A DNA stretch of 40,847 nucleotides, from NCBI GenBank assembly GCA_050739495.1, contig JBOIBL010000104.1, forward strand, positions 1 to 40,847, read 5' to 3'. Position numbers and translations under genes: made by a program. Below the pieces are notes generated by a model. The model was not told where the DNA came from. It was given only the letters and a program-made list of their open reading frames with translations, and did no database searches. The first letter of the stretch is position 1; each line of letters begins with the position of its first letter. This DNA is from Gammaproteobacteria bacterium (GTDB lineage Bacteria > Pseudomonadota > Gammaproteobacteria > Natronospirales > REEB76). Below, piece after piece: positions 1,226 to 24,534 of this stretch.

Positions 1226-2137
1226 ATGCTGCAAACCATTCGGTTCCCACCGCCCTGCTCGGTTGAGCAATTCCCGAATTACATGGTCAGTGCGCCCCGC
1301 ATTGTCAGTACCGGGCGCGGCTGGACCGGCATTACTGCCCGGGTTTACGACCTGCCCGCTAACCCTGAAGTAGTCTCACTACCGGCGGTAGATGATTTCT
1401 GCATCAGCCTACGCCTTTCCAAGACTCCAATGGATGTCGAGCGTTCATTCGGCGGCCTGTTCAAAAAAGCGCGTGTGACCGAAGGCTCGATCAGCTTTGT
1501 GCCCGCGAAATCCGCCGTGTCGTGGCGTTCTGATGAGCCGCTTAGCGTCATGCATATCCATATCAGCCACAGTTTCCTGCAAAGTCATTTGAGCGATGCT
1601 ATTCAGGATCACTGCGTGGACCGAATTGAATGCCTGGATATGCTGGGCATAAGGGATGAGATGCTATGGGAACTTGGACGCGGGTTTTTGTCTGAAATGA
1701 CGACTCCAAATATGCAGGACAGGCTATACGTCGAGTCCCTGGGCCACATGATTGCCACTCACCTGATGCACCGCTACGCCATCGACTTGAAGCGGCAGCC
1801 TGGTTTGCCGCTGACCTTGTCACCTTCCGGCATAGATAAAACAATCAAGTTCATCGATGAAAATCTTGATCAGGACTTGAGTCTGGAGCAGTTAGCCAAC
1901 GTGGCGCATCTCAGCCTCTATTATTTCTTGAGGCAATTCAAAACCATTTGTGGCATGACGCCGCATCAATATGTGCTGAAGTCGCGTATCAAGCGTGCCA
2001 AGCACTTGCTTGCTGCCACCAGATATTCAATTGTCGAGATTAGCCAGATGACCGGTTTTGTGAGTCAGAGCCACTTTGCCAATGTCTTCAAGGCTCAAGC
2101 TGGAGTAACGCCGAGAGCATTCCGGCGCAATCGCTAA
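1226..2137 (+). CDS. AraC/XylS-family transcriptional regulator
   Basis: 303-aa ORF. The C-terminal double HTH is typical of AraC/XylS (LSLEQLANVAHLSLYYFLRQFKTICGMTPHQYVLKSRIKRAKHLL...GFVSQSHFANVFKAQAGVTPRAFRR). The N-terminal ~190 aa form a sensor-like domain of unknown ligand. An alternative start is Met20. Confidence 0.85.
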   Translation: MLQTIRFPPPCSVEQFPNYMVSAPRIVSTGRGWTGITARVYDLPANPEVVSLPAVDDFCISLRLSKTPMDVERSFGGLFKKARVTEGSISFVPAKSAVSWRSDEPLSVMHIHISHSFLQSHLSDAIQDHCVDRIECLDMLGIRDEMLWELGRGFLSEMTTPNMQDRLYVESLGHMIATHLMHRYAIDLKRQPGLPLTLSPSGIDKTIKFIDENLDQDLSLEQLANVAHLSLYYFLRQFKTICGMTPHQYVLKSRIKRAKHLLAATRYSIVEISQMTGFVSQSHFANVFKAQAGVTPRAFRRNR

Positions 2138-2435: not shown

Positions 2436-3974
2436 ATGCAAAAAGCAACAAAGTCAGAAATTGGGCAGCAAGCGTGGCGTCGCTCGATAGCGCCGCTGAT
2501 AGCGCTGATTTTCATTGGTTTGGTAGGCACCTTGATGCCGGCCAAAGATGCCAATGCCTTACCGGCTTTTGCCCGCAGATACCATCTGGTATGCAACGCT
2601 TGCCACACCCGGGAACCACGGCTGAATGCCTTCGGTGAACGTTTCTTCGAGAACGGCTTTCAGCTGCCTGGATCCGAGGATGGCGATGTTGCCCATCAGA
2701 TTTATCTCGGCAACACGGTCAATCACGCCGCGCTGAATGACGCATCGAATTATTTCGCGGTTCGCATACGTGGTCAGGCAGTTGACTATCAGTCCGATCA
2801 GCCCAGTGCAGACACTAACCGTCTGGATATCTCGCACATGATTCTGGATGGCTCGATATTTACCGCCGGTCCGATAACGAAAAATATCAGTTTCTTTGGG
2901 GAGTTTGCCGGGAGTACCCAGGATTCGGTGGTATTGAATACCGCGTCATTGCAATTCACGAATTTGGTCGGTTATCAGGATCTGAATGTGATCCTCGGAG
3001 CAGTCCAGACCGATGAATTCTTTGCTTATCCAAACGATCGTAACCAGATCAATTCATTGGATGGTTCCGAAGACGATAGCGGTTCTCCAGTCGGATACGA
3101 CCGTATTCCGATCGCACCGGCGGCATTCAACTTGAACATGTTTGGCCTGACCACAGGGAATGCCAACCTCGGGGCCGGAGGCGGCTTCGGCTTGTCTCCT
3201 TACGATCCCTTTGGCTTCAATGGTGGAGACAACGAAGAACAAGTATCGCTTTACGGCCGCCCATTCCAGGACAAGAGATTCCTGTACAGCGTGGGTTTGG
3301 CGCAGAACCATACGGCGGAAGATAACCCGCAGATCAGACACGATATCTTCGTATTGGCACGTTATGACTTTTTCCCGGGTGCTTACCAGGAGCTGGCCGT
3401 TTCCGGCTTCTACTACAAGGCGCCCAGTGCTGTCCGGGCAACGGTACCACTTGATCCGACCACCGATCCCGGAGACCCGGCTTGCACGACATTCCCCTGC
3501 TATCAATTGGGTCAAGTGGAAGATGTGGACAATTATGGCTTGGGCGCCAGGTGGTATACCGGGCCATTTGATATCTACTCGGCGCTTGTCTGGCACAAGA
3601 TAGATAGTCCCCGCTTCACTAACCCGGGTGCACAACAGGCCCAGTTCAAGAATACCGGGATGGGGTTCACGGTGGAGGCTGATTATCTGTTCAACGATAA
3701 GTGGCTTGGCGGGGTGCGCTACGACTATGCCAGCCCAGGCGGGCTGGAGAAGCTGCCACCATTGCTGCAGGGCACTGCACCCGAGATAAATCAGAAGTAT
3801 TCATATATCAATCTCCTGGCCAAATATTATCCGGCACCGAATTTTGCGATATACGGCCAGTTCACGCATAACCTCAACGGGACGAACCAGCTGCCATTGA
3901 TATTTGGAGGCGGCAATACGCCGGCGACAAATAACCGCAACGTGATTGCTTTCGGGTTCGACTGGGGCTTCTGA
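2436..3974 (+). CDS. cyc2: Cyc2-like fused monohaem cytochrome c / outer-membrane porin (copy A)
   Basis: GGAGG lies 9 nt upstream of the ATG. There is a signal peptide (...LMPAKDANA|LPAFARRY). A single CxxCH (CNACH, nt 2592-2606) follows right after the predicted cleavage site, in the context FARRYHLVCNACHTREPRLNAFGERF. The remaining ~450 aa are Gly/Asn/Tyr/Asp-rich with alternating beta-strand-like segments. The protein ends ...VIAFGFDWGF, a terminal-Phe OMP signature. The architecture matches Cyc2 of Fe(II) oxidisers as I remember it. Confidence 0.7.
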   Translation: MQKATKSEIGQQAWRRSIAPLIALIFIGLVGTLMPAKDANALPAFARRYHLVCNACHTREPRLNAFGERFFENGFQLPGSEDGDVAHQIYLGNTVNHAALNDASNYFAVRIRGQAVDYQSDQPSADTNRLDISHMILDGSIFTAGPITKNISFFGEFAGSTQDSVVLNTASLQFTNLVGYQDLNVILGAVQTDEFFAYPNDRNQINSLDGSEDDSGSPVGYDRIPIAPAAFNLNMFGLTTGNANLGAGGGFGLSPYDPFGFNGGDNEEQVSLYGRPFQDKRFLYSVGLAQNHTAEDNPQIRHDIFVLARYDFFPGAYQELAVSGFYYKAPSAVRATVPLDPTTDPGDPACTTFPCYQLGQVEDVDNYGLGARWYTGPFDIYSALVWHKIDSPRFTNPGAQQAQFKNTGMGFTVEADYLFNDKWLGGVRYDYASPGGLEKLPPLLQGTAPEINQKYSYINLLAKYYPAPNFAIYGQFTHNLNGTNQLPLIFGGGNTPATNNRNVIAFGFDWGF

Positions 3975-3989
3975 TTCGGAGGACAAAAA

Positions 3990-4844
3990 ATGAAAATTTG
4001 TCGCAACACTCTAAGCGGGATCGCGATAGGTATGTTGGCCATGATCGCGGGATTCTATGTGCCATGCACATCGGCGGCGGACTCCAATGATGCGGCTGCC
4101 AGCTATTTGCCGATCGAGCCATCACCATACACAGACAAACCTGCTGATAATGCCGATGCGCAAGCCGAAGGCAGACTGATTTTTGAGCGTGGATGTGCGC
4201 TTTGTCATGGAATGGATGGCAAGGGAGATGGCCCCACGGCCTATTTCATAGGCCGTAGTTCCGGACCACGCCCCCGCGACTTCACTTCCGGAACCTTCAA
4301 ATTCCGTTCAACCGAAAGCGGCGAATTGCCGACCGATGAAGACCTCTTCCGCACCGTTAGCGAAGGCATCCCCGGATTCATGCCGGCTTATGGAGGTTTA
4401 TCGGTGGTCAACCGGTGGAAGGTGATTTATTACATCAAGACTTTCTACCCTGGGTTCAAGGATGCGAAGCCGGCGGTTATCAAAGTTGTCGGGCAACCAG
4501 CGATGCCCACCGTCGCGAGTATCGATCACGGGCACCAGTTGTACCAGCGGATGCACTGTTGGGAGTGTCACGGCGGCGGTGGCGAAGGCGATGGATCGAA
4601 AGCCCCGACTCTCAAAGATGACTGGGGGATGCCGCTACCACCGGCCAACCTCACGTTGCCGCAATCGTTCAAGAACGGTCATCGTCCAGTGGATATATAC
4701 ATGACCATCATGACCGGCCTGAACGGTACCCCCATGCCCTCCTACAGCGACCTGTTCCAAGGCCATGAACAGGATGCGTGGGATCTGACCAATTACATAC
4801 TGTCGCTGTCTGCGGATGGGAGCGGTAAGCAAAAGGATTACTGA
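3990..4844 (+). CDS. periplasmic dihaem cytochrome c
   Basis: GGAGG lies 7 nt upstream. It has an N-terminal signal or anchor helix and two CxxCH motifs (CALCHG, CWECHG). Each is followed by a Met-containing segment (GIPGFMPAY; GLNGTPMPSY). It is clearly paralogous to residues ~280-520 of the 7144-8862 product. Confidence 0.85.
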   Translation: MKICRNTLSGIAIGMLAMIAGFYVPCTSAADSNDAAASYLPIEPSPYTDKPADNADAQAEGRLIFERGCALCHGMDGKGDGPTAYFIGRSSGPRPRDFTSGTFKFRSTESGELPTDEDLFRTVSEGIPGFMPAYGGLSVVNRWKVIYYIKTFYPGFKDAKPAVIKVVGQPAMPTVASIDHGHQLYQRMHCWECHGGGGEGDGSKAPTLKDDWGMPLPPANLTLPQSFKNGHRPVDIYMTIMTGLNGTPMPSYSDLFQGHEQDAWDLTNYILSLSADGSGKQKDY

Positions 4845-4901
4845 AAAATCGGGTCGATCAATCAATAAAATCTCCACTCACTCTCATTCTGGAGCATTGA
4901 A

Positions 4902-5630
4902 ATGAAGGTTTTCTTCAGCGTGTTCATGATCGGTGCAACCACCATGCTGTTTTCGCCGCAGACCGCCCTGGCCTATGCAGGGGGTACGGTGACAAAAGGC
5001 GGCACTATATCCGGGACGATATCTTTCAAAGGCACGCCTCCCGCGGAACCGATCATACAGGTTGATAAGAACATCGATTACTGTGGCAAAACCATTCCGG
5101 AAGACTGGTACGTAGTGAATAAAAAGGATGAGGTGGCAAATGCCGTAGTTTTGCTTGAAGACATTTCGAGCGGAAAACCCATCGACAAGAGCGCCGTCGT
5201 CCAGTGGGACAATCACAAGTGCATGTTTGATCCCCATGTGGCGATAGCCGTGGCCGGGCAGACACTGGACATCAAAAACAACGACCCGATACTGCATAAC
5301 ACGCATTTTCACATGATGCCATCTGGTCGCACGTTGTTTAACGAACCGCTGCCATTCAAAGGTCTGTCGATCAACAAGAAGCAACCGATCGCGCACCCCG
5401 GGGTCGTGAAAGTTACCTGCGATGCACATCACTGGATGCTTGGGTATATCTATGTCAATGATAATCCGTATATCGACAAGACCGGTGACAATGGGCATTT
5501 TGAATTAACCGATGTGCCACCGGGCACATACACATTGAAAATATGGCACGAAAAATTTGGAGAACATGAAGAGAAGGTTACGGTAACAGCAGGAGGAAAA
5601 GTTACCGTAAATTATAGTTTCTCAAAATAG
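4902..5630 (+). CDS. periplasmic cupredoxin-like (type-1 copper) protein with a C-terminal CarboxypepD_reg-like beta-sandwich
   Basis: Signal peptide (MKVFFSVFMIGATTMLFSPQTALA). It has DPILHNTHFHM (compare amicyanin or plastocyanin HNV/HNI). About 40 residues later comes VTCDAHHWM, which has the Cys-x2-His-x2-Met spacing of the amicyanin copper loop (nt 5418-5438). The C-terminal GHFELTDVPPGTYTLKIWHEKFG resembles carboxypeptidase-regulatory-like domains. Confidence 0.6.
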   Translation: MKVFFSVFMIGATTMLFSPQTALAYAGGTVTKGGTISGTISFKGTPPAEPIIQVDKNIDYCGKTIPEDWYVVNKKDEVANAVVLLEDISSGKPIDKSAVVQWDNHKCMFDPHVAIAVAGQTLDIKNNDPILHNTHFHMMPSGRTLFNEPLPFKGLSINKKQPIAHPGVVKVTCDAHHWMLGYIYVNDNPYIDKTGDNGHFELTDVPPGTYTLKIWHEKFGEHEEKVTVTAGGKVTVNYSFSK

Positions 5631-5725
5631 CAGCGATATTTCCCGCCCTCATATACCCACATGTACGAAGGGCCATGCGCTGCTATCGCAGTGTCAAGAT
5701 ACGCTTTTAGTCAGGAGTTAGACTA

Positions 5726-7147
5726 ATGCCAAATCCAACGACTCCCTCTGCATCTTTATCTAACCTCGACGAACTCATCGATCGCCCTGTCGTGATCCAG
5801 TGGCTGGCGTGGGGTCTGTTCTGGTTGATGATAGGACCGTCTATCGGCGCACTTATCTCGACGCAATTTGTCTATCCTGACGTCACCGGCACGTGGTTGC
5901 CGCTGCAATTCGGTAGATTGCGCCCTATCCACGTCAATACGGTGGTGTACGGCGCCTTCTCAGGACTGTTCATCGGGTGTGTGCAGTATCTCCTGCCGAG
6001 ACTTACCGGCGTCAGGATTCCCTGGCCACGTGTCAGCCGGCTGATGGTGTGGATCTGGAACCTGGGTATATTGTTCGGCGATCTTAGCCTGGCCGCGGGT
6101 TATAACCAGGGTCTGGAGGTGGCCGAATACCCGCTGATCATCGATATATTTGCCTTCGTGGGTCTCTTGACCCTGACGATACAGTTCTTGTTGGCGATAG
6201 GGCGGCGCACGCATCAGGATGTCTATGTGAGTCTCTGGTATCTGATGGGGGCTTTCGTATGGACATCGATGAACGAGATCTTAGGCAATTTCATCGTCCC
6301 CTATTACATTCCAGGCATAAATAACGCGGCCTTTCACGGCCTCTACCTGCATTACACCGTAGGCCTCTGGCTGACACCGGCAGGTTACGTGCTGATCTAT
6401 TACTTTCTGCCGGCGAGCGTCAAGAACCCGATATACAGCCACAAGCTTTCGATGATCGGATTCTGGTCTTTAGCGCTGTTTTATCCATTCGTGGGTATCC
6501 ACCATTATCTCTATAGCCCAATCGCGGACTGGGCGGAGACGTTAGCGATTATAACGTCGATGTTATTGATTATTCCGGTATGGACCGTATTGCAGAACTT
6601 CTTTGGAACGATGATCGGAAGGTGGCATACCTTTAGCAACAATCTTCCAGCAAAATTCCTGATTATCGGGTCGATTATGTACCTGCTGGGCTGCTTCCAG
6701 GGATCGACTGAAGCTTTGCGATCCATCCAGAAGCCGACGCACTTCACCGACTTCGTGATCTCACATTCTCACCTGACCGTATTCGGTACTTTCGTGATCT
6801 GGGCGATCGGAGGAACCTTGTATGTCTGGCCAAAGATGTTTGACCGAGAATTGTATTCGTTCAAGCTGGGCAACTGGTCGTTCTGGCTGATCACGATAGG
6901 CATATCTACCATGGGTGTCGTCCTCAGCGCCCAAGGGTTGCAGCAGGGATTCATGTGGATGAACGGCACCGAATGGATCGATTCGCTCGTACCCATGAAG
7001 CCTTTCTGGATCGTACGGACCCTGGCCGGCATATCGATGGATATGGGCATGAGTCTAATAGTGTTCAACCTGATGATGACGGCCCTTTCACGTGATGACA
7101 AGAAAACCAGTGCTTCGGGCGCTGTCGTCGGGGGGGCTGCGTCATGA
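5726..7147 (+). CDS. ccoN: cbb3-type (C-family) haem-copper oxidase subunit I, divergent CcoN
   Basis: AGGAG lies 9 nt upstream. The product is 473 aa and polytopic. Ligand motifs line up with the canonical CcoN motifs as I remember them. These are RPIHVNTVVYG (haem b His) and YLHYTVGLWLT (vs YGHNAVGFFLT, CuB His). Also FYPFVGIHHYLY (Tyr-x5-HH, vs YIWAGPHHLHY) and FVISHSHLTVFG (vs GHVH, haem b3/b His). Confidence 0.85.
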   Translation: MPNPTTPSASLSNLDELIDRPVVIQWLAWGLFWLMIGPSIGALISTQFVYPDVTGTWLPLQFGRLRPIHVNTVVYGAFSGLFIGCVQYLLPRLTGVRIPWPRVSRLMVWIWNLGILFGDLSLAAGYNQGLEVAEYPLIIDIFAFVGLLTLTIQFLLAIGRRTHQDVYVSLWYLMGAFVWTSMNEILGNFIVPYYIPGINNAAFHGLYLHYTVGLWLTPAGYVLIYYFLPASVKNPIYSHKLSMIGFWSLALFYPFVGIHHYLYSPIADWAETLAIITSMLLIIPVWTVLQNFFGTMIGRWHTFSNNLPAKFLIIGSIMYLLGCFQGSTEALRSIQKPTHFTDFVISHSHLTVFGTFVIWAIGGTLYVWPKMFDRELYSFKLGNWSFWLITIGISTMGVVLSAQGLQQGFMWMNGTEWIDSLVPMKPFWIVRTLAGISMDMGMSLIVFNLMMTALSRDDKKTSASGAVVGGAAS

Positions 7148-8862
7148 AAAGAGCAAGAACAGTCGTTCTCGTAGCCGGCTTCGGATTTTTCTTTCTGGCC
7201 GTATTTACCCAGGGTTTATTGCCCGCGATTCAGCCTCAATCACGCTATACCAAGGTATCGCGGGCAGTGCGGACCGATCGCGGCGATATGAAATGGATGT
7301 ACTCCAATGCCACCGACTACACCCCACTGGAAGCAAATGGGCGGGCCGTCTATCTGCGCGAGGGTTGCTGGTACTGTCATTCGCAGTACGTTCGGCCGGT
7401 CACGGGAGAAACTCTGCGATGGGGGCCGGTATCTGAGGTCGGTGAATATGCCTTCGATCAGCCGCATCTGCTGGGAACCCGCCGCATCGGACCCGATCTG
7501 ACCCGCGTCGGCGGCAAATACAGCGATGGCTGGCATCTGGCTCATTACTGGAACCCACGCATGCTGACACCGGACTCCATCATGCCGCGTTACAAACACC
7601 TGTTTGAAGGTGAATGGACCGCGGATGTGGTAACCGACTCACAGGGCCGCAAGACATTGCAGCAGGATGAAGAGACCAGGAAGCTGTTCGATTTCGGCAA
7701 TAAGGTTACTTTCAACCTGACTCCCAATCAGGATGGCCTGTTGTTTGTGCCTGATGATGCGAAGGGAAAATACCCGATAATCTTCACACCAAATAATGAA
7801 TTTACCGGCAAGCAGGTACATTTCGTTACCGAGAGCGATGACCTGCGTGGTCTGGTGGCATACGTGCAAAAGCTGGGCATGAACAGGGGTAAATGGCGCG
7901 ATACTTTCGAACCGCAGCTGCTGACCATAGAATCGCTTTCCATTCCTGAAGATCCCGAATGGATAGACGATGGCAAACGGATTTACGAGCACCGTTGCGA
8001 GGGTTGCCACGGCGCGAAGGGTGACGGAAATGGCCCGGCGGCGACATTCCTGGCAGTGCGCCCAAGGAATTTCACGTTAGGCGAATTCAAGTTCCGTCAT
8101 ACGCCATCCGGTTCGTTGCCAACGGACGGTGATTTGTTACAAACCATTACCCGCGGTGTGCGGGGTACCGCCATGCCGTCGTGGCATATGCTTACCGAAA
8201 AAGATCGCCTGGCACTGATCCAGTACATAAAATATGATTTAGCGGTGGACCGAAGCGACCCAAAACACCCGGTATCGTATTTCGTCGAAGATCCGCCGGA
8301 ACAACCGATATATATAGGTCTTGTTCCGCAAGCTACAGATGAAGTGATCGAGCACGGCCATGACATCTACCAGAAAGCCCGTTGCTGGGAATGTCATGGC
8401 AATGACGGTGCCGGCGATGGCCCCAAGGCAAACACACTTACTGACGACTGGGGATTCCCCATCGAGCCGGCAAATTTCGTTAAAGGTATTTTCAAATCCG
8501 GTCCATTGGTCACGGATATCTACCGCACGATTACGACCGGACTCAATGGCACACCGATGCCTTCTTACCACGACATTCTTGGTGACGATGACCGATGGGC
8601 GCTGTCTTATTACGTGCTTACCTTCTCGGCGTATCGTGCACCCGGTACCGGTGACCCGTTGGCAATATCGGAAGCTGATCGCGCAGCCCTCGACGATCCG
8701 GACATGCCGGCAGCCAGCCCGGCTGATGCGTACAAACCGTCCGAACAGAAGTTTGGTAAGGCTCCGGATGTTGCTTTGATACGGAATCTGGGTATGAAAA
8801 CTCTGGTGCCGTCAGCGAATTCGAAACCCGCTCCTGCCGCTGCCCAGGAAAAACCGAATTGA
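7144..8862 (+). CDS. ccoO: CcoO (monohaem subunit II of cbb3 oxidase) fused to a C-terminal dihaem cytochrome c (CcoP-like role)
   Basis: ATGA overlap with the ccoN stop. The N-terminal TM helix and REGCWYCHSQYVRP...PHLLGTRRIGPDLTRVGGKYSDGWHLAHYWNPR...SIMPRY...LVAYVQKLG make up a complete CcoO module (aa 1 to ~250). Two further CxxCH motifs follow (CEGCHG, CWECHG). The protein ends in a Pro/Ala-rich tail. Confidence 0.85.
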   Translation: MKRARTVVLVAGFGFFFLAVFTQGLLPAIQPQSRYTKVSRAVRTDRGDMKWMYSNATDYTPLEANGRAVYLREGCWYCHSQYVRPVTGETLRWGPVSEVGEYAFDQPHLLGTRRIGPDLTRVGGKYSDGWHLAHYWNPRMLTPDSIMPRYKHLFEGEWTADVVTDSQGRKTLQQDEETRKLFDFGNKVTFNLTPNQDGLLFVPDDAKGKYPIIFTPNNEFTGKQVHFVTESDDLRGLVAYVQKLGMNRGKWRDTFEPQLLTIESLSIPEDPEWIDDGKRIYEHRCEGCHGAKGDGNGPAATFLAVRPRNFTLGEFKFRHTPSGSLPTDGDLLQTITRGVRGTAMPSWHMLTEKDRLALIQYIKYDLAVDRSDPKHPVSYFVEDPPEQPIYIGLVPQATDEVIEHGHDIYQKARCWECHGNDGAGDGPKANTLTDDWGFPIEPANFVKGIFKSGPLVTDIYRTITTGLNGTPMPSYHDILGDDDRWALSYYVLTFSAYRAPGTGDPLAISEADRAALDDPDMPAASPADAYKPSEQKFGKAPDVALIRNLGMKTLVPSANSKPAPAAAQEKPN

Positions 8863-8875
8863 CGGAGCTTAATAT

Positions 8876-9058
8876 ATGTACCCACTAACCTCACTTATTT
8901 TCTGGCAGTTTCTTGTTGCAGTTCTGATGGGCGCTGCAGCACTTTGTCTGTTCGCATGGGCGGTGATCACCGGTCAGTTTTCAGATATAGAAAAAGCCAA
9001 ATATGATGCATACCACGCTGAAGTCAGCGAGGAGGATGATCATGACCAGCGGACCTGA
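8876..9058 (+). CDS. ccoS: cbb3 oxidase maturation protein CcoS/FixS
   Basis: 60 aa with a single TM helix followed by WAVITGQFSDIEKAKYD...EDD. This matches the CcoS pattern (WAxKSGQFDDLE) as I remember it. Its position directly after the cco structural genes supports the call. Confidence 0.75.
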   Translation: MYPLTSLIFWQFLVAVLMGAAALCLFAWAVITGQFSDIEKAKYDAYHAEVSEEDDHDQRT

Positions 9059-9251
9059 TCCGAACCGGAAAGGTGACGTCAATAAGAGTGATCCAGCTGA
9101 TCATCTCGAGGAGTTTGCCCAGGGCGAGATAAAGGTCAGGCACGGGAAAATCAATCTGTGGTTGCTGCCGGTTTACGCGATACTGTTCATCTGGGCCATT
9201 TATTACCTGTTCGTCTATTGGGGCGGATTGGGTCCGGGGTTGGATTACTGA
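9042..9251 (+). CDS. small membrane protein resembling the N-terminal (FixP_N) domain of CcoP
   Basis: I chose the start at Met14 of ORF 9003-9251 because GAGGAGG lies 6 nt upstream. It overlaps the ccoS 3' end by 17 nt. The product is 69 aa. It has a soluble stretch (...EFAQGEIKVRHGKINLWLLPVYAILFIWAIYYLFVYWGG) followed by one TM helix, as in the CcoP N-terminal anchor (DGIxE..N.lPrWW..lF..tI.fa..Y). Confidence 0.5.
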   Translation: MTSGPDPNRKGDVNKSDPADHLEEFAQGEIKVRHGKINLWLLPVYAILFIWAIYYLFVYWGGLGPGLDY

Positions 9252-9307
9252 GTGCGTAATTCGGATTCTGACGTATTGCACGATATCAATCGGTGTGAGG
9301 AATCGAC

Positions 9308-9442
9308 ATGAACAAACGGGTCATTAGAGCATTACTCATCTTCACGCTATTCAATTTGACCTATCTGGTTTTTGATATCTTTTACAATGTCCTGGGTGTG
9401 ATCTTTCACTGGGGAGGATTTCCGTCCGGCGGTTTGCTTTGA
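9308..9442 (+). CDS. 44-aa hydrophobic micro-protein (hypothetical)
   Basis: Not in the ORF track because it is under 60 aa. GAGGAA lies 5 nt upstream of the ATG. My translation is MNKRVIRALLIFTLFNLTYLVFDIFYNVLGVIFHWGGFPSGGLL. It has one predicted TM helix and lies within the cco maturation gene string. Confidence 0.35.
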   Translation: MNKRVIRALLIFTLFNLTYLVFDIFYNVLGVIFHWGGFPSGGLL

Positions 9443-9493
9443 GGCGGGCACTTATCCGATCCACGTGCACGGCGTGAAGAGAGGCTCATATAC

Positions 9494-9586
9494 ATGAACA
9501 TCTACGAAAAGATTGCATTTGGACTGTTTCTTGCATTTACGATCATCTTTTTCGCCTGGGTGGCTTACCTCGCTATCAAGAAGTGA
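9494..9586 (+). CDS. 30-aa single-TM micro-protein, possibly CcoQ-like
   Basis: Not in the ORF track. GAGAGG lies ~9 nt upstream. The translation is MNIYEKIAFGLFLAFTIIFFAWVAYLAIKK. Its stop is 3 nt before the next ATG (9590), which suggests translational coupling. The FFAWVAY...KK ending resembles the FixQ/CcoQ helix. Confidence 0.35.
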   Translation: MNIYEKIAFGLFLAFTIIFFAWVAYLAIKK

Positions 9587-9589
9587 CCG

Positions 9590-10264
9590 ATGCTCCAATA
9601 CCTGCTGGTCTTTGTTGCCGGTATGGCCGGCAGCTTTCATTGCGCTGGCATGTGCGGTGGCTTTGCCTGTGGTCTGACCCCGGATCCAAGAGGGAAACTT
9701 CATACCAGCCTGCGCCATTTTACCTATAACAGCGGTCGTGGCATCACGTATGTCTTTCTTGGCACATTCGCGGGTGTTACGGGCGGGTTTTTGCAACGCG
9801 GCGGGATCATTTTTGCGGAACGGACACTGGCTCTAACCGCCGGTCTGTTCATGGTGCTGATGGCCTTGAAGATCAGCGGTTATCTCGCCCATATCGGTAT
9901 AACCAGAACAGAAGCTACTGCAGGCCGGTTCCTGATTTTCTTCCGACGCCTTTTGGCAACGCCAGGGGTGAGCGCGCCGTTTGCATTCGGGCTGGCGAAC
10001 GGATTTCTCCCCTGCCCCTTGGTATATGCATTTCTGGCGCGGGCCGCGGCCACTGGAACACCATTGACCGGCGCTGCAACCATGGCCGCATTTGCGCTCG
10101 GCACGTTTCCCATGATGCTACTTCTGGGGGGGCTGGGGCCGGTGCTGCGCTATCAATGGCGGAAACGCGGCGCGGGAGTTGCTGCCGTCTTTCTGCTCCT
10201 ATTGGGCGTTATAACGGCTCTGAGGGCCTTTATTCCGCTTCAGATGCACATGCACATGGTATGA
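9590..10264 (+). CDS. DsbD_2 / TauE-SafE-like polytopic membrane protein (HCxxMCGG motif)
   Basis: 224 aa with about 6 TM helices. The N-terminal MAGSFHCAGMCGGFACG motif is characteristic of the DsbD_2-type cytochrome-biogenesis/permease family often found next to ccoI/ccoS. It overlaps the ccoI start by 4 nt. Confidence 0.55.
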   Translation: MLQYLLVFVAGMAGSFHCAGMCGGFACGLTPDPRGKLHTSLRHFTYNSGRGITYVFLGTFAGVTGGFLQRGGIIFAERTLALTAGLFMVLMALKISGYLAHIGITRTEATAGRFLIFFRRLLATPGVSAPFAFGLANGFLPCPLVYAFLARAAATGTPLTGAATMAAFALGTFPMMLLLGGLGPVLRYQWRKRGAGVAAVFLLLLGVITALRAFIPLQMHMHMV

Positions 10265-12357
10265 ACAGTTGCGCTCATTGCGGACTTCCAGCGGGTCACC
10301 GCCCATACGAACGCCGGATCGGGGGCGAGGCAACGGTGTTTTGCTGCTATGGCTGCTGTCTGGCCATGTTGCTCATGCGCGGCCGCGGCGATGAAGCCAA
10401 TGTGGCAGGACACCTGATTCGTCTGGGAATCGGTGTCTTTTTCGCGATGTTTATCATGCTTCTCAGTCTGGTCATATACAGTGGTTCCATTCCGGCAGAG
10501 GAACCTTCCCTTCGTCACTATGTGGATGTAATCCTGCTGGTACTTGCTACGCCAGTGGTGGTCCTGCTCGGTGGACCGTTCTTCCTTGGTACTTGGAGCG
10601 GATTGCGGCATGGCCGGATGACAAGTGATGCTCTGGTCGTTACCGCGGTACTGGTAGGTTATCTGTATTCGGCTTTCCAGGTATATATCGGCTCATCTCG
10701 CGTCTATTTCGATACCTTGACCATGGTGCTCTTGCTGTTCACATTGGGACGCTATCTGGAAGCATTGGGCCGTGCACGCGCCAATGGTGATCTCGAGGAA
10801 GCACTCGACCTCGGGCGGCAAATGGCGCACGTTGTCGAAGATGGAAAGACACGCAACATACCGGCATCGGAAATCGATTCTGGTTGGCTGATAAGCGTGC
10901 TTGCTGGAGAGCGGATACCCGTTGATGGCACCATCATCAGCGGCACCGGTGACATAGATGAAGCAATGCTCACGGGCGAATCAGTGCCGGTAGACAAGCA
11001 ACCCGGCGATATGGTGCAAGCCGGTTCGATCAACGGCATGGATACGTTGCTAATACGTTGCGCCCGACCGCTTGCTGCGTCCCGCTGGGCAGCCTTGGGG
11101 AGTCTGGTACGCCAGTCTCTGGCGCGGCGCTCTCCACTCGAAGATGTTGCGGATCGCATTGTCGGGTGGTTTTTACCGACAGTTTTGCTGGTTGCAGCGT
11201 CAGCCGTTTGCTACTGGTTTTATGACGGAGATCCAACGCGTGCCTTATCTAGTTGCCTTGCGGTACTCGTTGTCGCTTGCCCATGCGCACTCGGTCTTGC
11301 CGTGCCACTGGCTTCCTCCATGGGCGTTGCCGCGGCCCTGCGTCACGGTGTCGTCATCCACCGTGACGCGTTGGGAAGATTACCGTCTATCAGAGCTGTG
11401 GCGTTCGATAAAACCGGCACCCTCACGCGCGGTCACCCAACGCTCAGCCGGGTAGTCGCGTTCCCCGGCTTTTCGTCCGATGCTGTCATGGATATTGCAG
11501 TAACACTCGCCGTCGTTTCTGAGCATGTGCTTTCCAGGGCCATTGCAACTTCATCCATGCCGCAGGGAGACGCCGTCAATGTACGCACCTATCCCGGGTT
11601 TGGAATCGGCGGAGAAATAAATCGGCGACATTGCTCGATTGGATCACGTCGATTCATGGAGCAGCAGAAGATCGAGACTCCCGCTGGCGGTTACCACCGT
11701 GGCACCGAGATATGGGTGGCAGCAGGAAACAGTATCGCGGGCAAGATAATGTTGCACGACGCGCCCAGGCCGGAGATTCCGGACGTAATCGCGTGCTTGA
11801 AAGCCAAGAAAATTTATCCGGTGATATTAAGCGGCGATAACCCAGAGGCAGTTTCTGAAATCGCCAGGCAGGTGGGCATCGAAAAATATTTCGCCGAGAT
11901 GCGACCTGAAGACAAGTTGAGGGAACTATGCATTCTCAAAACTAAATACAAGCATATAGCAATGGTCGGGGATGGAATCAATGATGCACCGGTTCTTGCT
12001 GCGGCCGAGATAGGCATCGCAGTCGCTGACGCGTCAGGACTTGCGAAGGTATCTTCCCAGATCATGTTGCCACATGACGGGCTGGGTCAGTTGCCTTATC
12101 TATTTGAGCTCGCCAGCAAGGTAAGGCGCGTATCCGTCGATAATTTACGCTGGGCATTTTTTTATAATGTAATTGCTATCACGCTGGCTGCCGGTGGCCT
12201 TTTACAGCCGGTCTATGCAGCATCCTTGATGGCTGGTTCTAGTCTCATGGTGCTGCTCAATTCACAACGCCTACGACGTGATGCTGGGTATCCATTGAAT
12301 CAAGCTGCGAGAGATGCAGGCTACCGAACCGGTTGGAGCGAAGACCATGCTGGCTAA
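10261..12357 (+). CDS. ccoI: P1B-type copper-translocating ATPase, CcoI/FixI-like
   Basis: I moved the start to the ATG at 10261 ([10 protein letters not shown]...), which makes an ATGA overlap with the upstream stop. The N-terminal Cys-rich metal-binding domain (CAHCG...FCCYGCC) is typical of FixI/CcoI. Other motifs are TGESVPV, the membrane CPC ([13 protein letters not shown]), DKTGTLT and [10 protein letters not shown]. Confidence 0.85.
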
Positions 12358-15352: not shown

Positions 15353-15419
15353 GGTCGTGTCTCCGTAGAGAGGAAAATGCCCTTGACTCAAGGGTCCATT
15401 TTTCGGTGTTTGTCTGTAC

Positions 15420-15830
15420 TCACTTGCCCTGTTGCATGTCGCCTTTGAGATAGGCGATCAACGGGCGCAAATCCTGAATCATCGTGGCATCGAATGAAGG
15501 CATATCCGGATAGGTGTCGTCATAGTGCCGTTTCGCACCGGTGCGGCCATTGCGAATCACTTCCGCGATGGCGGTTTCAGGCGCATAGACGATGAACTGA
15601 TTGCCCTGCAGGGGCGGGGCTGTCGCCGGCAACTCGTGTCCCTTGGTGCCCTCTCCATGGTCACCGTGACAGGTTGCACAGCGTGCGTCGAAGATTGCCC
15701 GGCCAGCATCCTGTTCCGTCAGCGAGCTTCCGGTGGTCTGGTCTGCGGCCCGTCCCGGAGCCACAAAAATCACTACTGCGAATGCCGCTGTAGCGAGCAC
15801 GAATGATGCCAAAATCTTGGGGAGTCTCAT
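15420..15830 (-). CDS. periplasmic monohaem class I cytochrome c
   Basis: I chose the start at Met27 of the track ORF (GAGGAA 7 nt upstream). Signal peptide MRLPKILASFVLATAAFAVVIFVAPGRA|ADQ. It has one CxxCH (CATCHG) and a distal YPDMPSF. Confidence 0.85.
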   Translation of the reverse strand: MRLPKILASFVLATAAFAVVIFVAPGRAADQTTGSSLTEQDAGRAIFDARCATCHGDHGEGTKGHELPATAPPLQGNQFIVYAPETAIAEVIRNGRTGAKRHYDDTYPDMPSFDATMIQDLRPLIAYLKGDMQQGK

Positions 15831-16118
15831 GGCAATTTCCTCGGTAAGCGTGGAGTTCAAATGCCACCCGGTTAATGTAAAACCGGACACCGATCTGCGA
15901 TGTCTCATTGAGGTTAGATGATTTTAAAGTATTGTCAAGAACACGACATATTAATATAAATAATATTACATATATGCTCTGGCGTTGCAATCTCATGCAG
16001 CACAAAGGGTTTGGGCGTAGTAGAAAGGCAACAGCCGCCAATTCGGAATGATGGGAGCTGTATAAAGGCAGTCTGTATGCCAGAGCCTTGGTTTAGAGGC
16101 GTTATGGAGTGATGCTTA

Positions 16119-16571: not shown

Positions 16572-16738
16572 GGTTCCTGCTCCTCCCGGATGCGTTGCTT
16601 CAATTCGTTCAGCAACCGGCGTAGCCGCCTGCCCGGCAACCAGGCGTTCACGATCAGTACCACGGCAGTGATTATGTATGCGGGCCAGACATATGCAGCA
16701 TAGCCGCCCATGGTCAGGAATTCGTGCCAGGATTTCAT
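16568..16738 (-). CDS. ccmD: haem exporter protein CcmD
   Basis: These are the last 56 codons of track ORF 16568-17395: MKSWHEFLTMGGYAAYVWPAYIITAVVLIVNAWLPGRRLRRLLNELKQRIREEQEP. This matches the CcmD pattern (F..MGGYA.YVW.AY). The ATG overlaps the ccmC stop (ATGA). Confidence 0.85.
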   Translation of the reverse strand: MKSWHEFLTMGGYAAYVWPAYIITAVVLIVNAWLPGRRLRRLLNELKQRIREEQEP

Positions 16739-18933: not shown

Positions 18934-18939
18934 GGATGG

Positions 18940-19028: not shown

Positions 19029-19047
19029 CTGCTCAGGAGACCAGAAA

Positions 19048-19231: not shown

Positions 19232-19240
19232 TTTTATATC

Positions 19241-23202: not shown

Positions 23203-24534
<1,332 letters not shown>

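What the first reader, a model, noticed from the sequence alone, without database searches (positions are those of the whole stretch)
2436..8862. cyc2 - dihaem c - cupredoxin - ccoN - ccoO/P operon: a rus-operon-like outer-membrane-to-O2 chain built on a C-family oxidase
Five same-strand genes are each preceded by a strong SD, with short gaps or overlaps. (1) A fused monohaem cytochrome-porin: signal peptide, CNACH at the mature N-terminus, a ~450-aa barrel-like body and a terminal ...DWGF. (2) A periplasmic dihaem cytochrome c. (3) A cupredoxin with an amicyanin-type copper loop. (4) CcoN. (5) CcoO fused to a dihaem cytochrome. This parallels the Acidithiobacillus ferrooxidans rus operon, which encodes cyc2, the dihaem cyc1, an orf, the aa3 oxidase coxBACD and rusticyanin. 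Here the oxidase is cbb3-type and the copper protein is not rusticyanin-like. cyc2 and cbb3 oxidases are both implicated in neutrophilic Fe(II) oxidisers (Mariprofundus, Gallionellaceae). I am not aware of a characterised single operon that joins porin-cytochrome, soluble cytochrome, cupredoxin and a CcoO-cytochrome fusion, but I cannot search to confirm this. If it functions as proposed, it is a complete self-contained chain from an extracellular donor, probably Fe(II), to oxygen. It would be controlled by the adjacent AraC regulator.
Basis: partly seen in the sequence, partly recalled or inferred. Interest (0 to 1): 0.85.

Follow-up and report, generated by a model that had tools for sequence, protein, structure and literature searches.

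The report
Outer-membrane cytochrome to oxygen operon
One operon encodes a haem-carrying outer-membrane pore, two periplasmic electron carriers and a variant low-oxygen oxidase, which together look like a complete route for electrons from an outside donor (probably ferrous iron) to oxygen; no paper I could search describes the layout, but it is not unique to this genome.

Summary
Five co-directional genes with Shine-Dalgarno sites and gaps of 15, 57, 95 and -4 nt encode:
- a Cyc2-type fused monohaem cytochrome-porin, with the Cyc2 signature motif and a predicted 16-strand barrel;
- a dihaem cytochrome c;
- a type-1 copper cupredoxin with an amicyanin-like fold and invariant His/Cys/His/Met ligands;
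- a divergent but catalytically complete CcoN;
- a CcoO fused to a dihaem domain.

The operon runs past the reported end, to about 12357, and includes ccoS, a small membrane protein, a DsbD_2 protein and a CcoI-like ATPase.

Only Cyc2 is homologous to its rus counterpart. The dihaem cytochrome, the copper protein and the oxidase belong to other families.

The layout is not unique. The same full operon occurs in a Gemmatimonadota MAG (metagenome-assembled genome) and in several metagenomic lineages. The Cyc2-dihaem-cupredoxin triad is common and is present in many Nitrospira. The same oxidase clade also sits next to arsenite oxidase or SoxA-like modules.

Fe(II) as the donor is inferred, not shown. 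I found no paper describing this operon. I class it as a new variant of a known kind, of moderate to high interest.

The parts
1226..2137 (+). AraC-family transcriptional regulator, a candidate regulator of the operon
   Evidence: Pfam HTH_18 (81 bits) and HTH_AraC. It lies 298 nt upstream on the same strand. A full-length homologue (35% identity) sits next to the same operon in L080-82, divergently oriented. Its regulatory role is inferred.
2436..3974 (+). Cyc2-type fused monohaem cytochrome-porin (512 aa)
   Evidence: Hydrophobic signal region at residues 15-33, then ANA/LP. The motif ALPAFARRY-HLV-CNACH-TRE-PRL fits the Cyc2 consensus AXPXFAR[Q/K][T/Y]...CXXCH...PXL (PMC8406198), with R in place of Q/K. 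One CXXCH. The AlphaFold2 model has 16 strands and matches OmpC/OmpF at E 5e-12 by Foldseek. The protein ends in ...DWGF. hhalign against a canonical-motif Cyc2 family gives 98.9% probability.
3990..4844 (+). Periplasmic dihaem cytochrome c (284 aa)
   Evidence: Two CXXCH at residues 69 and 190. Pfam Cytochrom_C and Cytochrome_CBB3, twice each. Matches PDB 6H5L_B at E 6e-52. 43-45% identical to the C-terminal dihaem domain of CcoO-cc homologues. A homologue lies immediately downstream of the Cyc2-like gene in 63 of 66 loci.
4902..5630 (+). Periplasmic type-1 copper cupredoxin with a C-terminal CarboxypepD_reg-like beta-sandwich domain (242 aa)
   Evidence: H132, C173, H176 and M179 are invariant in 60 of 60 homologues, and C61/C107 are 98% conserved. 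AlphaFold2 pLDDT 92.9. Top Foldseek hits are amicyanin (E 3e-6), pseudoazurin, plastocyanin and CuA; AcoP ranks 48th. Pfam CarboxypepD_reg at residues 193-237.
5726..7147 (+). CcoN, the catalytic subunit of a divergent cbb3-type (C-family) haem-copper oxidase
   Evidence: Pfam COX1 at 242 bits. TIGR00780 ccoN scores 240 bits, below its cut-off of 583. Matches PDB 3MK7_A at E 8e-57, with the haem b, haem b3 and CuB histidines and the helix-7 tyrosine conserved (H69, H209, Y253, H259, H260, H347, H349). More than 3500 homologues, about 70% identical across phyla.
7144..8862 (+). CcoO fused to a CcoP-like dihaem cytochrome domain (572 aa, three haems)
   Evidence: Pfam FixO at 158 bits plus two cytochrome c domains. 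CXXCH at residues 75, 285 and 414. N-terminal TM helix at residues 3-21. Residues 57-156 match 3MK7_B at E 4e-31, and residues 272-494 match 6H5L_B at E 4e-58. The start overlaps the ccoN stop by 4 nt.
8876..9058 (+). CcoS/FixS-like oxidase maturation protein (60 aa)
   Evidence: Pfam FixS at 34 bits, above its cut-off of 23.1. Conserved in the same position in L008, L010 and L080.
9036..9251 (+). Small single-TM protein conserved with the oxidase cluster (the ORF opens at 9003; the likely start is the internal ATG at 9036, behind GAGGAGG)
   Evidence: No Pfam hit. TM segment at residues 48-66. Homologues 48-65% identical sit in the same position in L008, L010 and L080. Its function is unknown.
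9590..10264 (+). DsbD_2 / CcdA-like membrane thiol-reductant transporter
   Evidence: Pfam DsbD_2 at 140 bits. Conserved downstream of the oxidase genes in L008, L010, L013, L080 and most metagenome loci.
10261..12357 (+). CcoI/FixI-like P1B-type copper ATPase (the ORF opens at 10156; homologues align from about residue 32 onward, which suggests the ATG at 10261, overlapping the dsbD_2 stop)
   Evidence: Pfam E1-E2_ATPase at 162 bits, Hydrolase, and a weak ATPase-cat_bd hit. 43-48% identical to the ATPase in the same position in L008, L010, L013 and L080. The start site is inferred.

Best explanation
This is a roughly 10-kb operon (2436-12357) for a dedicated respiratory branch that carries electrons from the outer membrane to O2.

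Proposed path (inferred):
1. A Cyc2-type monohaem cytochrome-porin in the outer membrane takes single electrons from a dissolved donor that enters the pore. Fe(II) is the most likely donor.
2. The haem domain, on the periplasmic side, reduces the soluble dihaem cytochrome c (ORF2) and/or the type-1 copper cupredoxin (ORF3).
3. These carriers reduce the dihaem domain fused to CcoO.
4. Electrons pass through the CcoO haem c to haem b and the haem b3-CuB site of CcoN, where O2 is reduced and, as in other cbb3 oxidases, protons are presumably pumped.

The downstream genes (ccoS, the small TM protein, DsbD_2, the CcoI-like Cu ATPase) supply copper and reducing equivalents for assembly of the oxidase and the cytochromes.

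Shown here: the identity and cofactor-binding residues of every component, their co-directional close packing, and conservation of the gene order in unrelated lineages.

Inferred: the order of electron carriers, the donor, energy conservation and regulation by AraC.
For: Components:
- Cyc2 motif, single haem site, and a 16-strand barrel model with porin matches.
- ORF2 dihaem.
- ORF3 copper ligands invariant in 60 of 60 homologues, with a cupredoxin fold.
- All CcoN redox ligands and the cross-link tyrosine are conserved.
- CcoO plus a dihaem domain.

Linkage:
- Gaps of 15, 57, 95 and -4 nt, with Shine-Dalgarno sites and no + strand terminator-like site in the intergenic gaps of the operon.
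- The same full gene order in L013 (Gemmatimonadota; ORF1 38%, ORF2 57%, ORF3 41%, CcoN 65%, CcoO-cc 57% identity) and in L080-82 (36, 65, 63, 69 and 61%).
- The same oxidase clade follows a different Cyc2 subtype plus dihaem plus cupredoxin in 16 metagenome loci, all from one lineage. Two more loci carry divergently oriented cyc2-dihaem pairs.
- ORF2 follows the Cyc2-like gene in 63 of 66 loci, and ORF2 then ORF3 follow in order in 43 of 60.

Modular logic: in L009 the same dihaem + cupredoxin + oxidase set follows a bona fide arsenite oxidase, AioBA, which scores above the NCBIfam cut-offs. NCBIfam names that enzyme 'arsenate reductase (azurin)'. By my own knowledge its natural acceptors are azurin or cytochrome c, which supports a shuttle role for ORF2 and ORF3.

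Literature:
- Cyc2 proteins from all three clusters oxidise Fe(II) in vitro (PMC8406198).
- Chains of the form Cyc2 -> cytochrome c or cupredoxin -> cbb3 have been proposed for Zetaproteobacteria, Leptospirillum and Ferrovum.
Against: - There is no functional evidence of any kind for this locus.
- ORF1 has only about 40 detectable relatives in 5.8 billion proteins by the word-indexed search. Its closest named relatives are uncultured Woeseia and Chromatiales MAGs.
- Its wider family includes Nitrospira homologues assigned to Cyc2 Cluster 3, whose function is called the most uncertain.
- The motif has R where the published consensus has Q/K. The FeGenie HMM score could not be computed.
- In most genomes the triad is not next to any oxidase. 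In Ca. Nitrospira defluvii it is followed by hybrid histidine kinases, so the triad does not need this oxidase.
- The window holds glyoxylate-shunt genes and no carbon-fixation genes, so the organism need not be an iron lithotroph.
- ORF3 could be an assembly factor rather than a carrier.
- Co-transcription is inferred from spacing only.
Confidence: 0.6

Rival explanations
1. The chain has the same architecture and direction, but the physiological donor is not Fe(II). It could be Mn(II) or another one-electron reductant that reaches the outer membrane or the periplasm, such as reduced humic-type quinones or Cu(I).
For: - A Cluster 3 Cyc2 homologue is a proposed Mn(II) oxidase in Ca. Manganitrophus (PMC9040806).
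- Authors working on Nitrospira Cyc2 could not assign Fe or Mn.
- The same oxidase module is plugged into different donor modules: AioBA, and SoxA-like/Metallophos. The oxidase therefore says nothing about the donor.
Against: - Every Cyc2 tested biochemically oxidises Fe(II).
- Mn(II)/Mn(III) has a much higher potential and would need unusually high-potential carriers.
- Nothing in the window points to manganese.
Confidence: 0.2
2. ORF3 is not an electron shuttle. It is a periplasmic copper-handling or assembly factor, or a structural accessory subunit, of this oxidase subfamily. Electrons go Cyc2 -> ORF2 -> CcoO-cc directly.
For: - ORF3-like genes accompany this CcoN clade whatever the donor module (Cyc2, Aio or SoxA-like).
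- They lie in a cluster rich in copper and assembly genes: CcoS, the CcoI-like ATPase, SCO1, and CtaG in L009.
- ORF3 has an extra beta-sandwich domain that is unusual for soluble shuttles.
Against: - The invariant His-Cys-His-Met set with a C-x2-H-x2-M loop is the classic type-1 electron-transfer site, not a chaperone site.
- ORF3 homologues also occur in the triad in Nitrospira, far from any such oxidase.
Confidence: 0.15
3. The Cyc2-dihaem-cupredoxin triad and the oxidase cluster are two independent modules that merely abut here. The triad serves another purpose, for example feeding electrons uphill or to other acceptors, Fe(II) detoxification, or redox sensing.
For: - The triad occurs without an adjacent oxidase in most loci; CcoN lies downstream in only 4 of 50 loci with enough sequence.
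- The oxidase clade occurs without Cyc2 in type A loci.
- In Ca. N. defluvii the triad is next to sensor kinases.
Against: - The fusion of the two modules recurs in at least six separate lineages, with two different Cyc2 subtypes and in two phyla.
- ORF3 is shared by both modules and sits exactly at the junction.
- The gaps are short and hold no terminator.
Confidence: 0.1

Closest known systems
Acidithiobacillus ferrooxidans rus operon (cyc2-cyc1-cup-coxBACD-rus; cup is the cupredoxin AcoP by my own knowledge)
   Same: One operon that starts with a Cyc2 cytochrome-porin, then a dihaem cytochrome c, then a cupredoxin, then the terminal oxidase genes. The proposed function is Fe(II) -> O2 across both membranes (PMC10654088).
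   Different: - The oxidase is C-family (CcoN / CcoO-dihaem), not A-family aa3.
- There is no rusticyanin.
- ORF2 is a 6H5L_B-type dihaem, and no c4/Cyc1 sequence match was found.
- ORF3 is amicyanin-like with an extra beta-sandwich domain. It has no sequence match to AcoP and only a weak structural one (rank 48).
- Nothing suggests an acidophile.
- Copper and haem maturation genes are appended.
Cyc2 family of fused cytochrome-porins (Clusters 1-3; Keffer et al. 2021, PMC8406198), especially the Cluster 3 homologues of Nitrospira and Ca. Manganitrophus
   Same: Signal peptide, single CXXCH, the PXFAR motif, PXL at +4, more than 365 aa, and a 16-strand porin. Full-length homology (27-31% identity, E 1e-40 to 1e-49) to Nitrospira proteins, whose kind is reported as Cluster 3.
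   Different: - R replaces Q/K in the motif.
- At 512 aa it is longer than most, with long predicted loops of low confidence.
- It has very few close relatives; the best is 40% identical.
- Its function is untested.
Neutrophilic Fe-oxidiser model Cyc2 -> periplasmic cytochrome (Cyc1) -> cbb3 oxidase (Zetaproteobacteria, Gallionellaceae), and the Ferrovum and Leptospirillum models
   Same: The same conceptual chain ending in a cbb3-type oxidase. The Ferrovum model also includes a cupredoxin.
   Different: - For Leptospirillum the genes are reported not to be clustered. In Ferrovum JA12 the locus tags are far apart. For Zetaproteobacteria and Gallionellaceae I know of no clustering, but I did not test it.
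- Those organisms use canonical ccoNOQP. Here all parts are in one operon, and the oxidase is a distinct subfamily with a CcoO-dihaem fusion.
Canonical cbb3 oxidase CcoNOQP (Pseudomonas stutzeri, PDB 3MK7)
   Same: The CcoN ligands and the His-Tyr cross-link residue. CcoO is monohaem. A dihaem third component is present. ccoS and ccoI accessory genes are present.
   Different: - CcoN scores 240 bits against the ccoN equivalog model, whose cut-off is 583.
- CcoP is replaced by a dihaem domain of another lineage (6H5L_B-like), fused to the C-terminus of CcoO.
- No recognisable CcoQ.
- A dedicated cupredoxin partner gene.
Ca. Tenderia electrophaga cbb3-1/cbb3-2 region ('alternative complex IV'; bioRxiv 10.1101/2022.05.06.490989)
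   Same: The relatives L012, L001, L004 and L014 place the Cyc2-dihaem-cupredoxin triad directly upstream of a further dihaem cytochrome. In L004/L005 and L012 a cytochrome c and a truncated CcoN follow, and in L012 a distant CcoN/CcoO as well. This matches the gene list given for that region.
   Different: - The window has the complete, roughly 70%-conserved CcoN / CcoO-cc type instead.
- The Tenderiales paper reports Cyc2 as rare and does not link it to that region.
Arsenite oxidase AioBA with azurin or cytochrome c as acceptor
   Same: In L009 a true AioBA is followed by the same dihaem cytochrome, the same cupredoxin and the same oxidase clade. The logic matches: a periplasm-facing donor enzyme, then soluble carriers, then a dedicated oxidase.
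   Different: The donor module here is an outer-membrane cytochrome-porin, not a periplasmic molybdoenzyme.

Membership tests
Cyc2 fused cytochrome-porin (Keffer et al. 2021) | N-terminal signal peptide | tested here: met
   Hydrophobic segment at residues 15-33, followed by A-N-A|L-P. No dedicated signal-peptide predictor was available.
Cyc2 fused cytochrome-porin (Keffer et al. 2021) | A single CXXCH haem-binding motif near the mature N-terminus | tested here: met
   One CXXCH (CNACH) at residue 53.
Cyc2 fused cytochrome-porin (Keffer et al. 2021) | AXPXFAR[Q/K][T/Y] motif just upstream of CXXCH | tested here: inconclusive
   ORF1 has ALPAFARRY, so 8 of 9 positions fit and R replaces Q/K. 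The family members P0011 and P0014 have exact ...FARKY. The consensus is from PMC8406198.
Cyc2 fused cytochrome-porin (Keffer et al. 2021) | PXL motif 4 residues after CXXCH | tested here: met
   CNACH-TRE-PRL. P61 and L63 are (nearly) invariant in alignment A1.
Cyc2 fused cytochrome-porin (Keffer et al. 2021) | Length of at least 365 aa with a 16-strand beta-barrel porin | tested here: met
   512 aa. The AlphaFold2 model has 16 strands. Foldseek matches 16-strand OmpC/OmpF/Omp32 at E 5e-12, with target-normalised TM-score 0.64-0.66.
Cyc2 fused cytochrome-porin (Keffer et al. 2021) | Score above the cut-off against the FeGenie Cyc2 cluster HMMs, or placement in the Cyc2 tree | not testable with these tools
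   The HMMs and the reference alignment are not available here. Indirect evidence: full-length homology to Nitrospira proteins of the kind reported as Cluster 3 by FeGenie, and hhalign at 98.9% probability to a canonical-motif Cyc2 family.
Cyc2 fused cytochrome-porin (Keffer et al. 2021) | Fe(II) oxidase activity | not testable with these tools
   Needs biochemistry or genetics.
cbb3-type (C-family) haem-copper oxygen reductase | CcoN with the His ligands of haem b, haem b3 and CuB, and the helix-7 cross-link Tyr | tested here: met
   The alignment to 3MK7_A (E 8e-57) conserves H69, H209, Y253, H259, H260, H347 and H349. All are invariant in alignment A3.
cbb3-type (C-family) haem-copper oxygen reductase | Monohaem CcoO subunit encoded next to ccoN | tested here: met
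   Pfam FixO at 158 bits. Residues 57-156 match 3MK7_B at E 4e-31. The start overlaps the ccoN stop by 4 nt.
cbb3-type (C-family) haem-copper oxygen reductase | Separate membrane-anchored dihaem CcoP subunit, and CcoQ | tested here: not met
   There is no separate ccoP or ccoQ. A dihaem domain is fused to the C-terminus of CcoO and is closest to 6H5L_B (E 4e-58). CcoP matches only at E 3e-4.
cbb3-type (C-family) haem-copper oxygen reductase | Score above the NCBIfam ccoN / ccoO equivalog cut-offs | tested here: not met
   TIGR00780 scores 240 bits against 583, and TIGR00781 scores 141 against 201. It is a divergent subfamily, not a canonical member.
rus-type iron-oxidation operon (orthology) | cyc2 homologue as the first gene | tested here: met
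   See the Cyc2 rows. The rus gene order is taken from PMC10654088.
rus-type iron-oxidation operon (orthology) | c4-type Cyc1, AcoP/rusticyanin-type cupredoxins and an aa3 oxidase (coxBACD) | tested here: not met
   - ORF2 has no c4/Cyc1 hit in the PDB sequence search.
- ORF3 has no sequence hit to AcoP or rusticyanin at E <= 10.
- The oxidase is C-family.
The operon works like rus but is not a member.

The most novel reading that the evidence does not exclude
The window shows one instance of a general, undescribed respiratory design. A distinct subfamily of cbb3-type oxidase (CcoN plus a CcoO-dihaem fusion) has an obligate type-1 copper partner protein. Horizontally mobile cassettes plug this oxidase into alternative lithotrophic donor modules: Cyc2 cytochrome-porins, arsenite oxidase, or SoxA-like/metallophosphatase proteins. 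On this reading the Cyc2-dihaem-cupredoxin triad is the real functional unit of Cluster 3 type Cyc2 proteins. Many organisms not considered metal oxidisers, including Nitrospira, Woeseiaceae, Gemmatimonadota and Binatia, would then respire an extracellular metal donor with it.
Probability: 0.3. Interest if true: 0.75.

Novelty: new variant of a known kind. Interest (0 to 1): 0.58.

Why it matters
Cyc2 is the most widely used genetic marker for microbial iron oxidation. Outside acidophiles its partners are guessed from genes that are not reported as linked to it, and the function of Cluster 3 type homologues is openly uncertain.

An operon that physically joins such a Cyc2 to two periplasmic carriers and a complete terminal oxidase gives a concrete, testable wiring diagram. 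It names the carriers: a 6H5L_B-type dihaem cytochrome and a two-domain cupredoxin. It also identifies an oxidase subfamily that appears to specialise in periplasmic or extracellular donors.

The conserved triad in Nitrospira and in marine sediment Gammaproteobacteria bears directly on whether these abundant organisms take part in metal cycling.

The whole chain is about 6.4 kb in five genes, plus maturation genes. That makes it a convenient cassette for heterologous reconstitution of electron uptake.

Tried and rejected
- FeGenie Cyc2 HMMs are not available. I searched the supplements of McAllister 2020 for Cyc2 sequences to use as references and found none. Membership rests on the published motif, the fold and transitive homology.
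- A PDB sequence search with ORF3 gave only pseudoazurin at E 0.2, which is not significant. Ligand conservation and AlphaFold2/Foldseek settled the question.
- My first look at the closest ORF1 homologues (L001-L007) suggested that no oxidase was linked to them. That was partly an effect of short contigs, and was corrected by L013, L080-82 and the metagenome scan.
- A first count suggested that half of the sampled oxidase loci are Cyc2-linked. Dereplication showed that the 16 loci are one lineage with at least 90% CcoN identity, so I do not claim that frequency.
- I tried to learn the provenance of the window through an exact look-up of ORF1. Nothing was on record.
- I tried to name relatives of the second cytochrome-porin (ORF-B) through cluster members. 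All were 'hypothetical protein' without organism names.
- Six literature searches for a described cyc2-ccoN operon, a CcoO-CcoP fusion with a cupredoxin, or Nitrospira Cyc2 neighbourhoods found no description of this operon. Only open-access papers and bioRxiv were searched, so absence is not proof.
- I considered a nitric-oxide reductase identity for the oxidase and rejected it. The best matches are cbb3 structures, and the cross-link Tyr is conserved.
- The promoter and terminator scans were uninformative: the counts were at or below shuffled expectation.

Full report
**1. Observation**

- 2436-3974 (512 aa)
- 3990-4844 (284 aa)
- 4902-5630 (242 aa)
- 5726-7147 (473 aa)
- 7144-8862 (572 aa)

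Each start is preceded by a Shine-Dalgarno-like sequence: GGAGG, GGAGGA, GGAG, AGGAG and a G-run. The gaps are 15, 57, 95 and -4 nt. No + strand terminator-like site falls in the intergenic gaps of the operon, although the consensus scans as a whole are no better than shuffled sequence.

The co-directional block does not stop at 8862. It continues with:
- a CcoS/FixS gene (8876-9058; Pfam FixS at 34 bits);
- an 82-aa single-TM protein (9003/9036-9251);
- a DsbD_2 protein (9590-10264);
- a CcoI/FixI-like P-type ATPase (ORF from 10156, probable start at 10261, to 12357).

An AraC-family regulator lies 298 nt upstream on the same strand.

**2. The 512-aa protein is a Cyc2-type cytochrome-porin**

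It has no Pfam hit, and only 41 relatives were found in the 5.8-billion-protein collection, the best 40% identical.

Keffer et al. 2021 define the Cyc2 family by these features (PMC8406198):
- a signal peptide;
- a single CXXCH;
- an AXPXFAR[Q/K][T/Y] motif just upstream of it;
- a PXL motif four residues downstream;
- a length of at least 365 aa;
- a 16-strand porin.

ORF1 reads ...ANA-LPAFARRY-HLV-CNACH-TRE-PRL.... All features are present except that R replaces Q/K, and its relatives P0011 and P0014 have exact FARKY.

An AlphaFold2 model built on a 33-sequence alignment (pTM 0.75, mean pLDDT 70; the loops are of low confidence) has 16 strands between residues 107 and 511. Foldseek matches it to the 16-strand general porins OmpC, OmpF and Omp36 at E about 5e-12, with target-normalised TM-score 0.64-0.66.

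A profile comparison of the ORF1 family with a family that carries the canonical PPFARQT motif (found later) gives 98.9% probability and E 2e-17 over the haem domain and the first strands.

A scan of one genome per species found 69 loci. They come from Woeseia, Chromatiales, Thiohalomonadales, Ca. Kutchimonas denitrificans, Methylomirabilales, Binatia and about 45 Nitrospira/Nitrospirales genomes, including Ca. Nitrospira defluvii. Nitrospira Cyc2 homologues have been assigned to Cyc2 Cluster 3 by FeGenie and by phylogeny (bioRxiv 10.1101/2024.12.25.630300). Keffer et al. call the function of that cluster the most uncertain.

I could not run the FeGenie HMMs, so cluster assignment is transitive and not direct.

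**3. The other four proteins**

*ORF2.* It has two CXXCH motifs and a cleavable-looking signal sequence. Its closest solved relative is chain B of 6H5L (E 6e-52), the small cytochrome bound to an HAO-like protein of Kuenenia stuttgartiensis. I recall this chain as the dihaem Kustc0457; that identification is my own knowledge. No c4-type cytochrome such as A. ferrooxidans Cyc1 appears among the hits.

*ORF3.* Its only Pfam hit is a C-terminal CarboxypepD_reg domain.
- H132, C173, H176 and M179 are invariant in 60 of 60 homologues. C61 and C107 are 98% conserved and may form a disulfide (inferred).
- A high-confidence model (pLDDT 92.9) has its N-terminal domain matching amicyanin (E 3e-6), pseudoazurin, plastocyanin and CuA domains. 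AcoP of A. ferrooxidans appears only at rank 48.

*CcoN.* It matches Pseudomonas stutzeri CcoN (3MK7_A) at E 8e-57. The two haem b histidines, the haem b3 histidine, the three CuB histidines and the helix-7 tyrosine are conserved. All are invariant in 29 relatives. It scores only 240 bits against the NCBIfam ccoN equivalog, whose cut-off is 583. It belongs to a large clade of more than 3500 hits, about 70% identical across Rhizobium, Pseudothauera, Chromatiales, Rhodospirillales and Verrucomicrobiales.

*The 572-aa protein.* It is CcoO (one TM helix and one haem; E 4e-31 to 3MK7_B) fused to a dihaem domain. That domain is again 6H5L_B-like (E 4e-58), matches CcoP only at E 3e-4, and is 43-45% identical to ORF2.

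**4. Conservation of the arrangement**

*The triad.* Among 71 ORF1-like genes in the fetched loci:
- an ORF2 homologue lies immediately downstream in 63 of 66 with enough sequence;
- ORF2 then ORF3 follow in order in 43 of 60;
- an ORF3 homologue lies somewhere in the locus in 54 of 60.

So Cyc2-like / dihaem / cupredoxin is a conserved triad. In Ca. N. defluvii it stands alone and is followed by hybrid histidine kinases.

*The full layout of the window* (triad + CcoN + CcoO-cc + DsbD_2 + ATPase) recurs in:
- L013, from Ca. Kutchimonas denitrificans of the Gemmatimonadota (identities 38, 57, 41, 65 and 57%);
- L080-82, from sequencing-run assemblies (36, 65, 63, 69 and 61%), with an adjacent, divergently oriented AraC homologue 35% identical.

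In L012 (Chromatiales) the triad precedes a further dihaem cytochrome, a cytochrome c, a truncated CcoN and a distant CcoN/CcoO. L001, L004/L005 and L014 show parts of the same series. This resembles the gene list given for the 'cbb3-1/-2' region of Ca. Tenderia electrophaga.

*Survey starting from the oxidase.* I fetched 80 metagenome loci with the CcoN alignment. Two main upstream contexts appear:
- Type A: ORF3-like cupredoxin + metallophosphatase + SoxA-like cytochrome c (37 loci). Rhizobium mongolense has this type, near FCSD and SoxYZ genes.
- Type B: a Cyc2 homologue with the canonical A[VI]PPFARQTGLACEACHT.PPEL motif + dihaem + ORF3-like (16 loci, plus 6 cut by contig ends). In two further loci a cyc2-dihaem pair lies divergently.

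After dereplication, the 16 type B loci are one lineage (CcoN at least 90% identical, GC about 0.6). The honest count is therefore about six or seven distinct Cyc2-linked lineages, and not half of the clade.

In L009 the same dihaem + cupredoxin + oxidase set follows a true arsenite oxidase. AioA scores 456 bits against a cut-off of 359, and AioB 125 against 96. By my own knowledge, the natural acceptors of that enzyme are azurin or cytochrome c.

**5. Mechanism**

The best-supported reading is a dedicated branch from the outer membrane to O2:

donor -> Cyc2-type haem -> ORF2 and/or ORF3 in the periplasm -> dihaem domain of CcoO-cc -> CcoO haem c -> CcoN haem b -> haem b3/CuB -> O2.

The downstream genes would serve copper delivery and cytochrome maturation.

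Shown here: the cofactor sites, the folds, the gene packing and the recurrent synteny.

Inferred: the order of the carriers, Fe(II) as the donor, proton pumping, co-transcription and AraC control.

The Aio-linked and SoxA-like-linked versions argue that the dihaem/cupredoxin pair and this oxidase form a reusable acceptor module for periplasm-facing donor enzymes. This supports the direction of electron flow but says nothing about which donor Cyc2 handles.

Fe(II) is favoured because representatives of all three Cyc2 clusters oxidise Fe(II) in vitro. Mn(II), proposed for the Ca. Manganitrophus homologue, and other donors remain open.

The window also carries glyoxylate-shunt genes and no carbon-fixation genes. 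A facultative or mixotrophic use is therefore as likely as obligate lithotrophy.

**6. Comparison with what is known**

The rus operon of A. ferrooxidans is cyc2-cyc1-cup-coxBACD-rus. The order Cyc2 / dihaem c / Cu protein / oxidase is thus the same. Only Cyc2 is homologous. The dihaem cytochrome, the cupredoxin and the oxidase are of different families. The locus works like rus without being a member.

The conceptual chain Cyc2 -> cytochrome c (± cupredoxin) -> cbb3 is already proposed for Zetaproteobacteria, Leptospirillum and Ferrovum. The Leptospirillum genes are reported not to be clustered, and the Ferrovum JA12 locus tags are far apart.

Six literature searches found no description of a cyc2-dihaem-cupredoxin-ccoN-ccoO operon, of the triad in Nitrospira, or of this oxidase subfamily with its cupredoxin partner. 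Only open-access papers and bioRxiv were searched.

**7. Verdict**

- the chain is plausible and backed by comparative genomics;
- uniqueness is overstated;
- homology with rus is limited to Cyc2;
- the donor is unproven.

Novelty: a new variant of a known kind (Cyc2-based donor-to-oxygen chains).

Interest is about 0.58. It remains well above ordinary, because the linkage names specific partners for an uncertain Cyc2 clade and exposes a modular oxidase system that appears to be undescribed.

Noticed in passing
window 13862-15355 (-), 15420-15908 (-), 16119-18969 (-): A second fused cytochrome-porin candidate (497 aa). It has a signal sequence and the motif AMPSYARQTGLDCNSCH, ends in ...DYGF, and lacks PXL at +4. 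It lies directly downstream of a monohaem cytochrome c gene and of ccmA, ccmB, ccmC/D and ccmE on the minus strand. A strong terminator-like hairpin (17-bp stem) follows at 13470-13432 (-). Only its N-terminal 64 aa resemble ORF1 (33% identity, E 3e-7). Its family is rare: 108 representatives at E <= 1e-3 among 1.84 billion proteins, and none carries an organism name. No structure was predicted for it.
   Followed up: partly
window 8876-12357 (+): The operon extends beyond the reported end. It continues with ccoS, a conserved 82-aa single-TM protein of unknown function, a DsbD_2 protein and a CcoI-like Cu ATPase. The longest ORFs of the 82-aa protein and the ATPase overlap the upstream genes by 56 and 109 nt, and internal starts at 9036 and 10261 fit the homologues better.
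   Followed up: yes
L008 6518-15727 (Rhizobium mongolense CP121642), L010, L163/L164, and 37 of the loci L083-L162: The same oxidase clade most often follows an ORF3-like cupredoxin, a roughly 380-aa metallophosphatase and a roughly 155-aa SoxA/TsdA-like cytochrome c. FCSD genes lie nearby in several loci, and SoxYZ genes in L008. The donor chemistry of this 'type A' module is unknown, and I found no description of it.
   Followed up: partly
L009 2570-10413: A bona fide arsenite oxidase, AioBA (above the NCBIfam cut-offs), is followed by the dihaem cytochrome, the ORF3-like cupredoxin, CtaG/Cox11, a DUF4382 protein and the same CcoN clade. This suggests a dedicated arsenite-to-O2 branch.
   Followed up: partly
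L050 9959-12986 (Ca. Nitrospira defluvii FP929003, about 776-797 kb); also L021, L023, L029: The Cyc2-like / dihaem / cupredoxin triad is present in about 45 Nitrospira/Nitrospirales genomes. In L021 and L023 two triads lie convergently, and L029 has two tandem Cyc2-like genes. In Ca. N. defluvii the triad is followed by two large hybrid histidine kinases.
   Followed up: partly
L001 14297-14503; L005 5837-6337; L012 14717-15130: Relatives carry short or truncated CcoN-like genes downstream of the triad: a 68-aa N-terminal fragment in L001, and pieces matching helices around residues 310-440 in L005 and L012. These resemble the 'truncated CcoN' listed for Ca. Tenderia electrophaga.
   Followed up: no
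window 3990-4844 and 7957-8625 (CcoO-cc residues 272-494): ORF2 and the dihaem domain fused to CcoO both match the dihaem cytochrome partner of an HAO-like protein of the anammox bacterium Kuenenia (PDB 6H5L chain B) at E 6e-52 and 4e-58. This dihaem module is therefore shared between very different electron-transfer systems.
   Followed up: partly
L003 5584-16728 (Methylomirabilales MAG): Here the Cyc2-like gene and the dihaem cytochrome are followed by a PF10634 (Iron_transport) protein and a Psr/Ttr-like molybdopterin oxidoreductase set (Mo subunit, 4Fe-4S subunit, NrfD, a NarJ-like chaperone) instead of a cupredoxin and oxidase. This hints at a link to the quinone pool.
   Followed up: no
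window 23203-28687; 18943-19316 (-); 38001-40000: - Isocitrate dehydrogenase, isocitrate lyase and malate synthase are clustered with a divergent LysR regulator.
- Three tRNA genes sit between ccmA and uvrC.
- G+C rises to 0.66 in the last 2-3 kb, against about 0.52-0.59 elsewhere.
   Followed up: no
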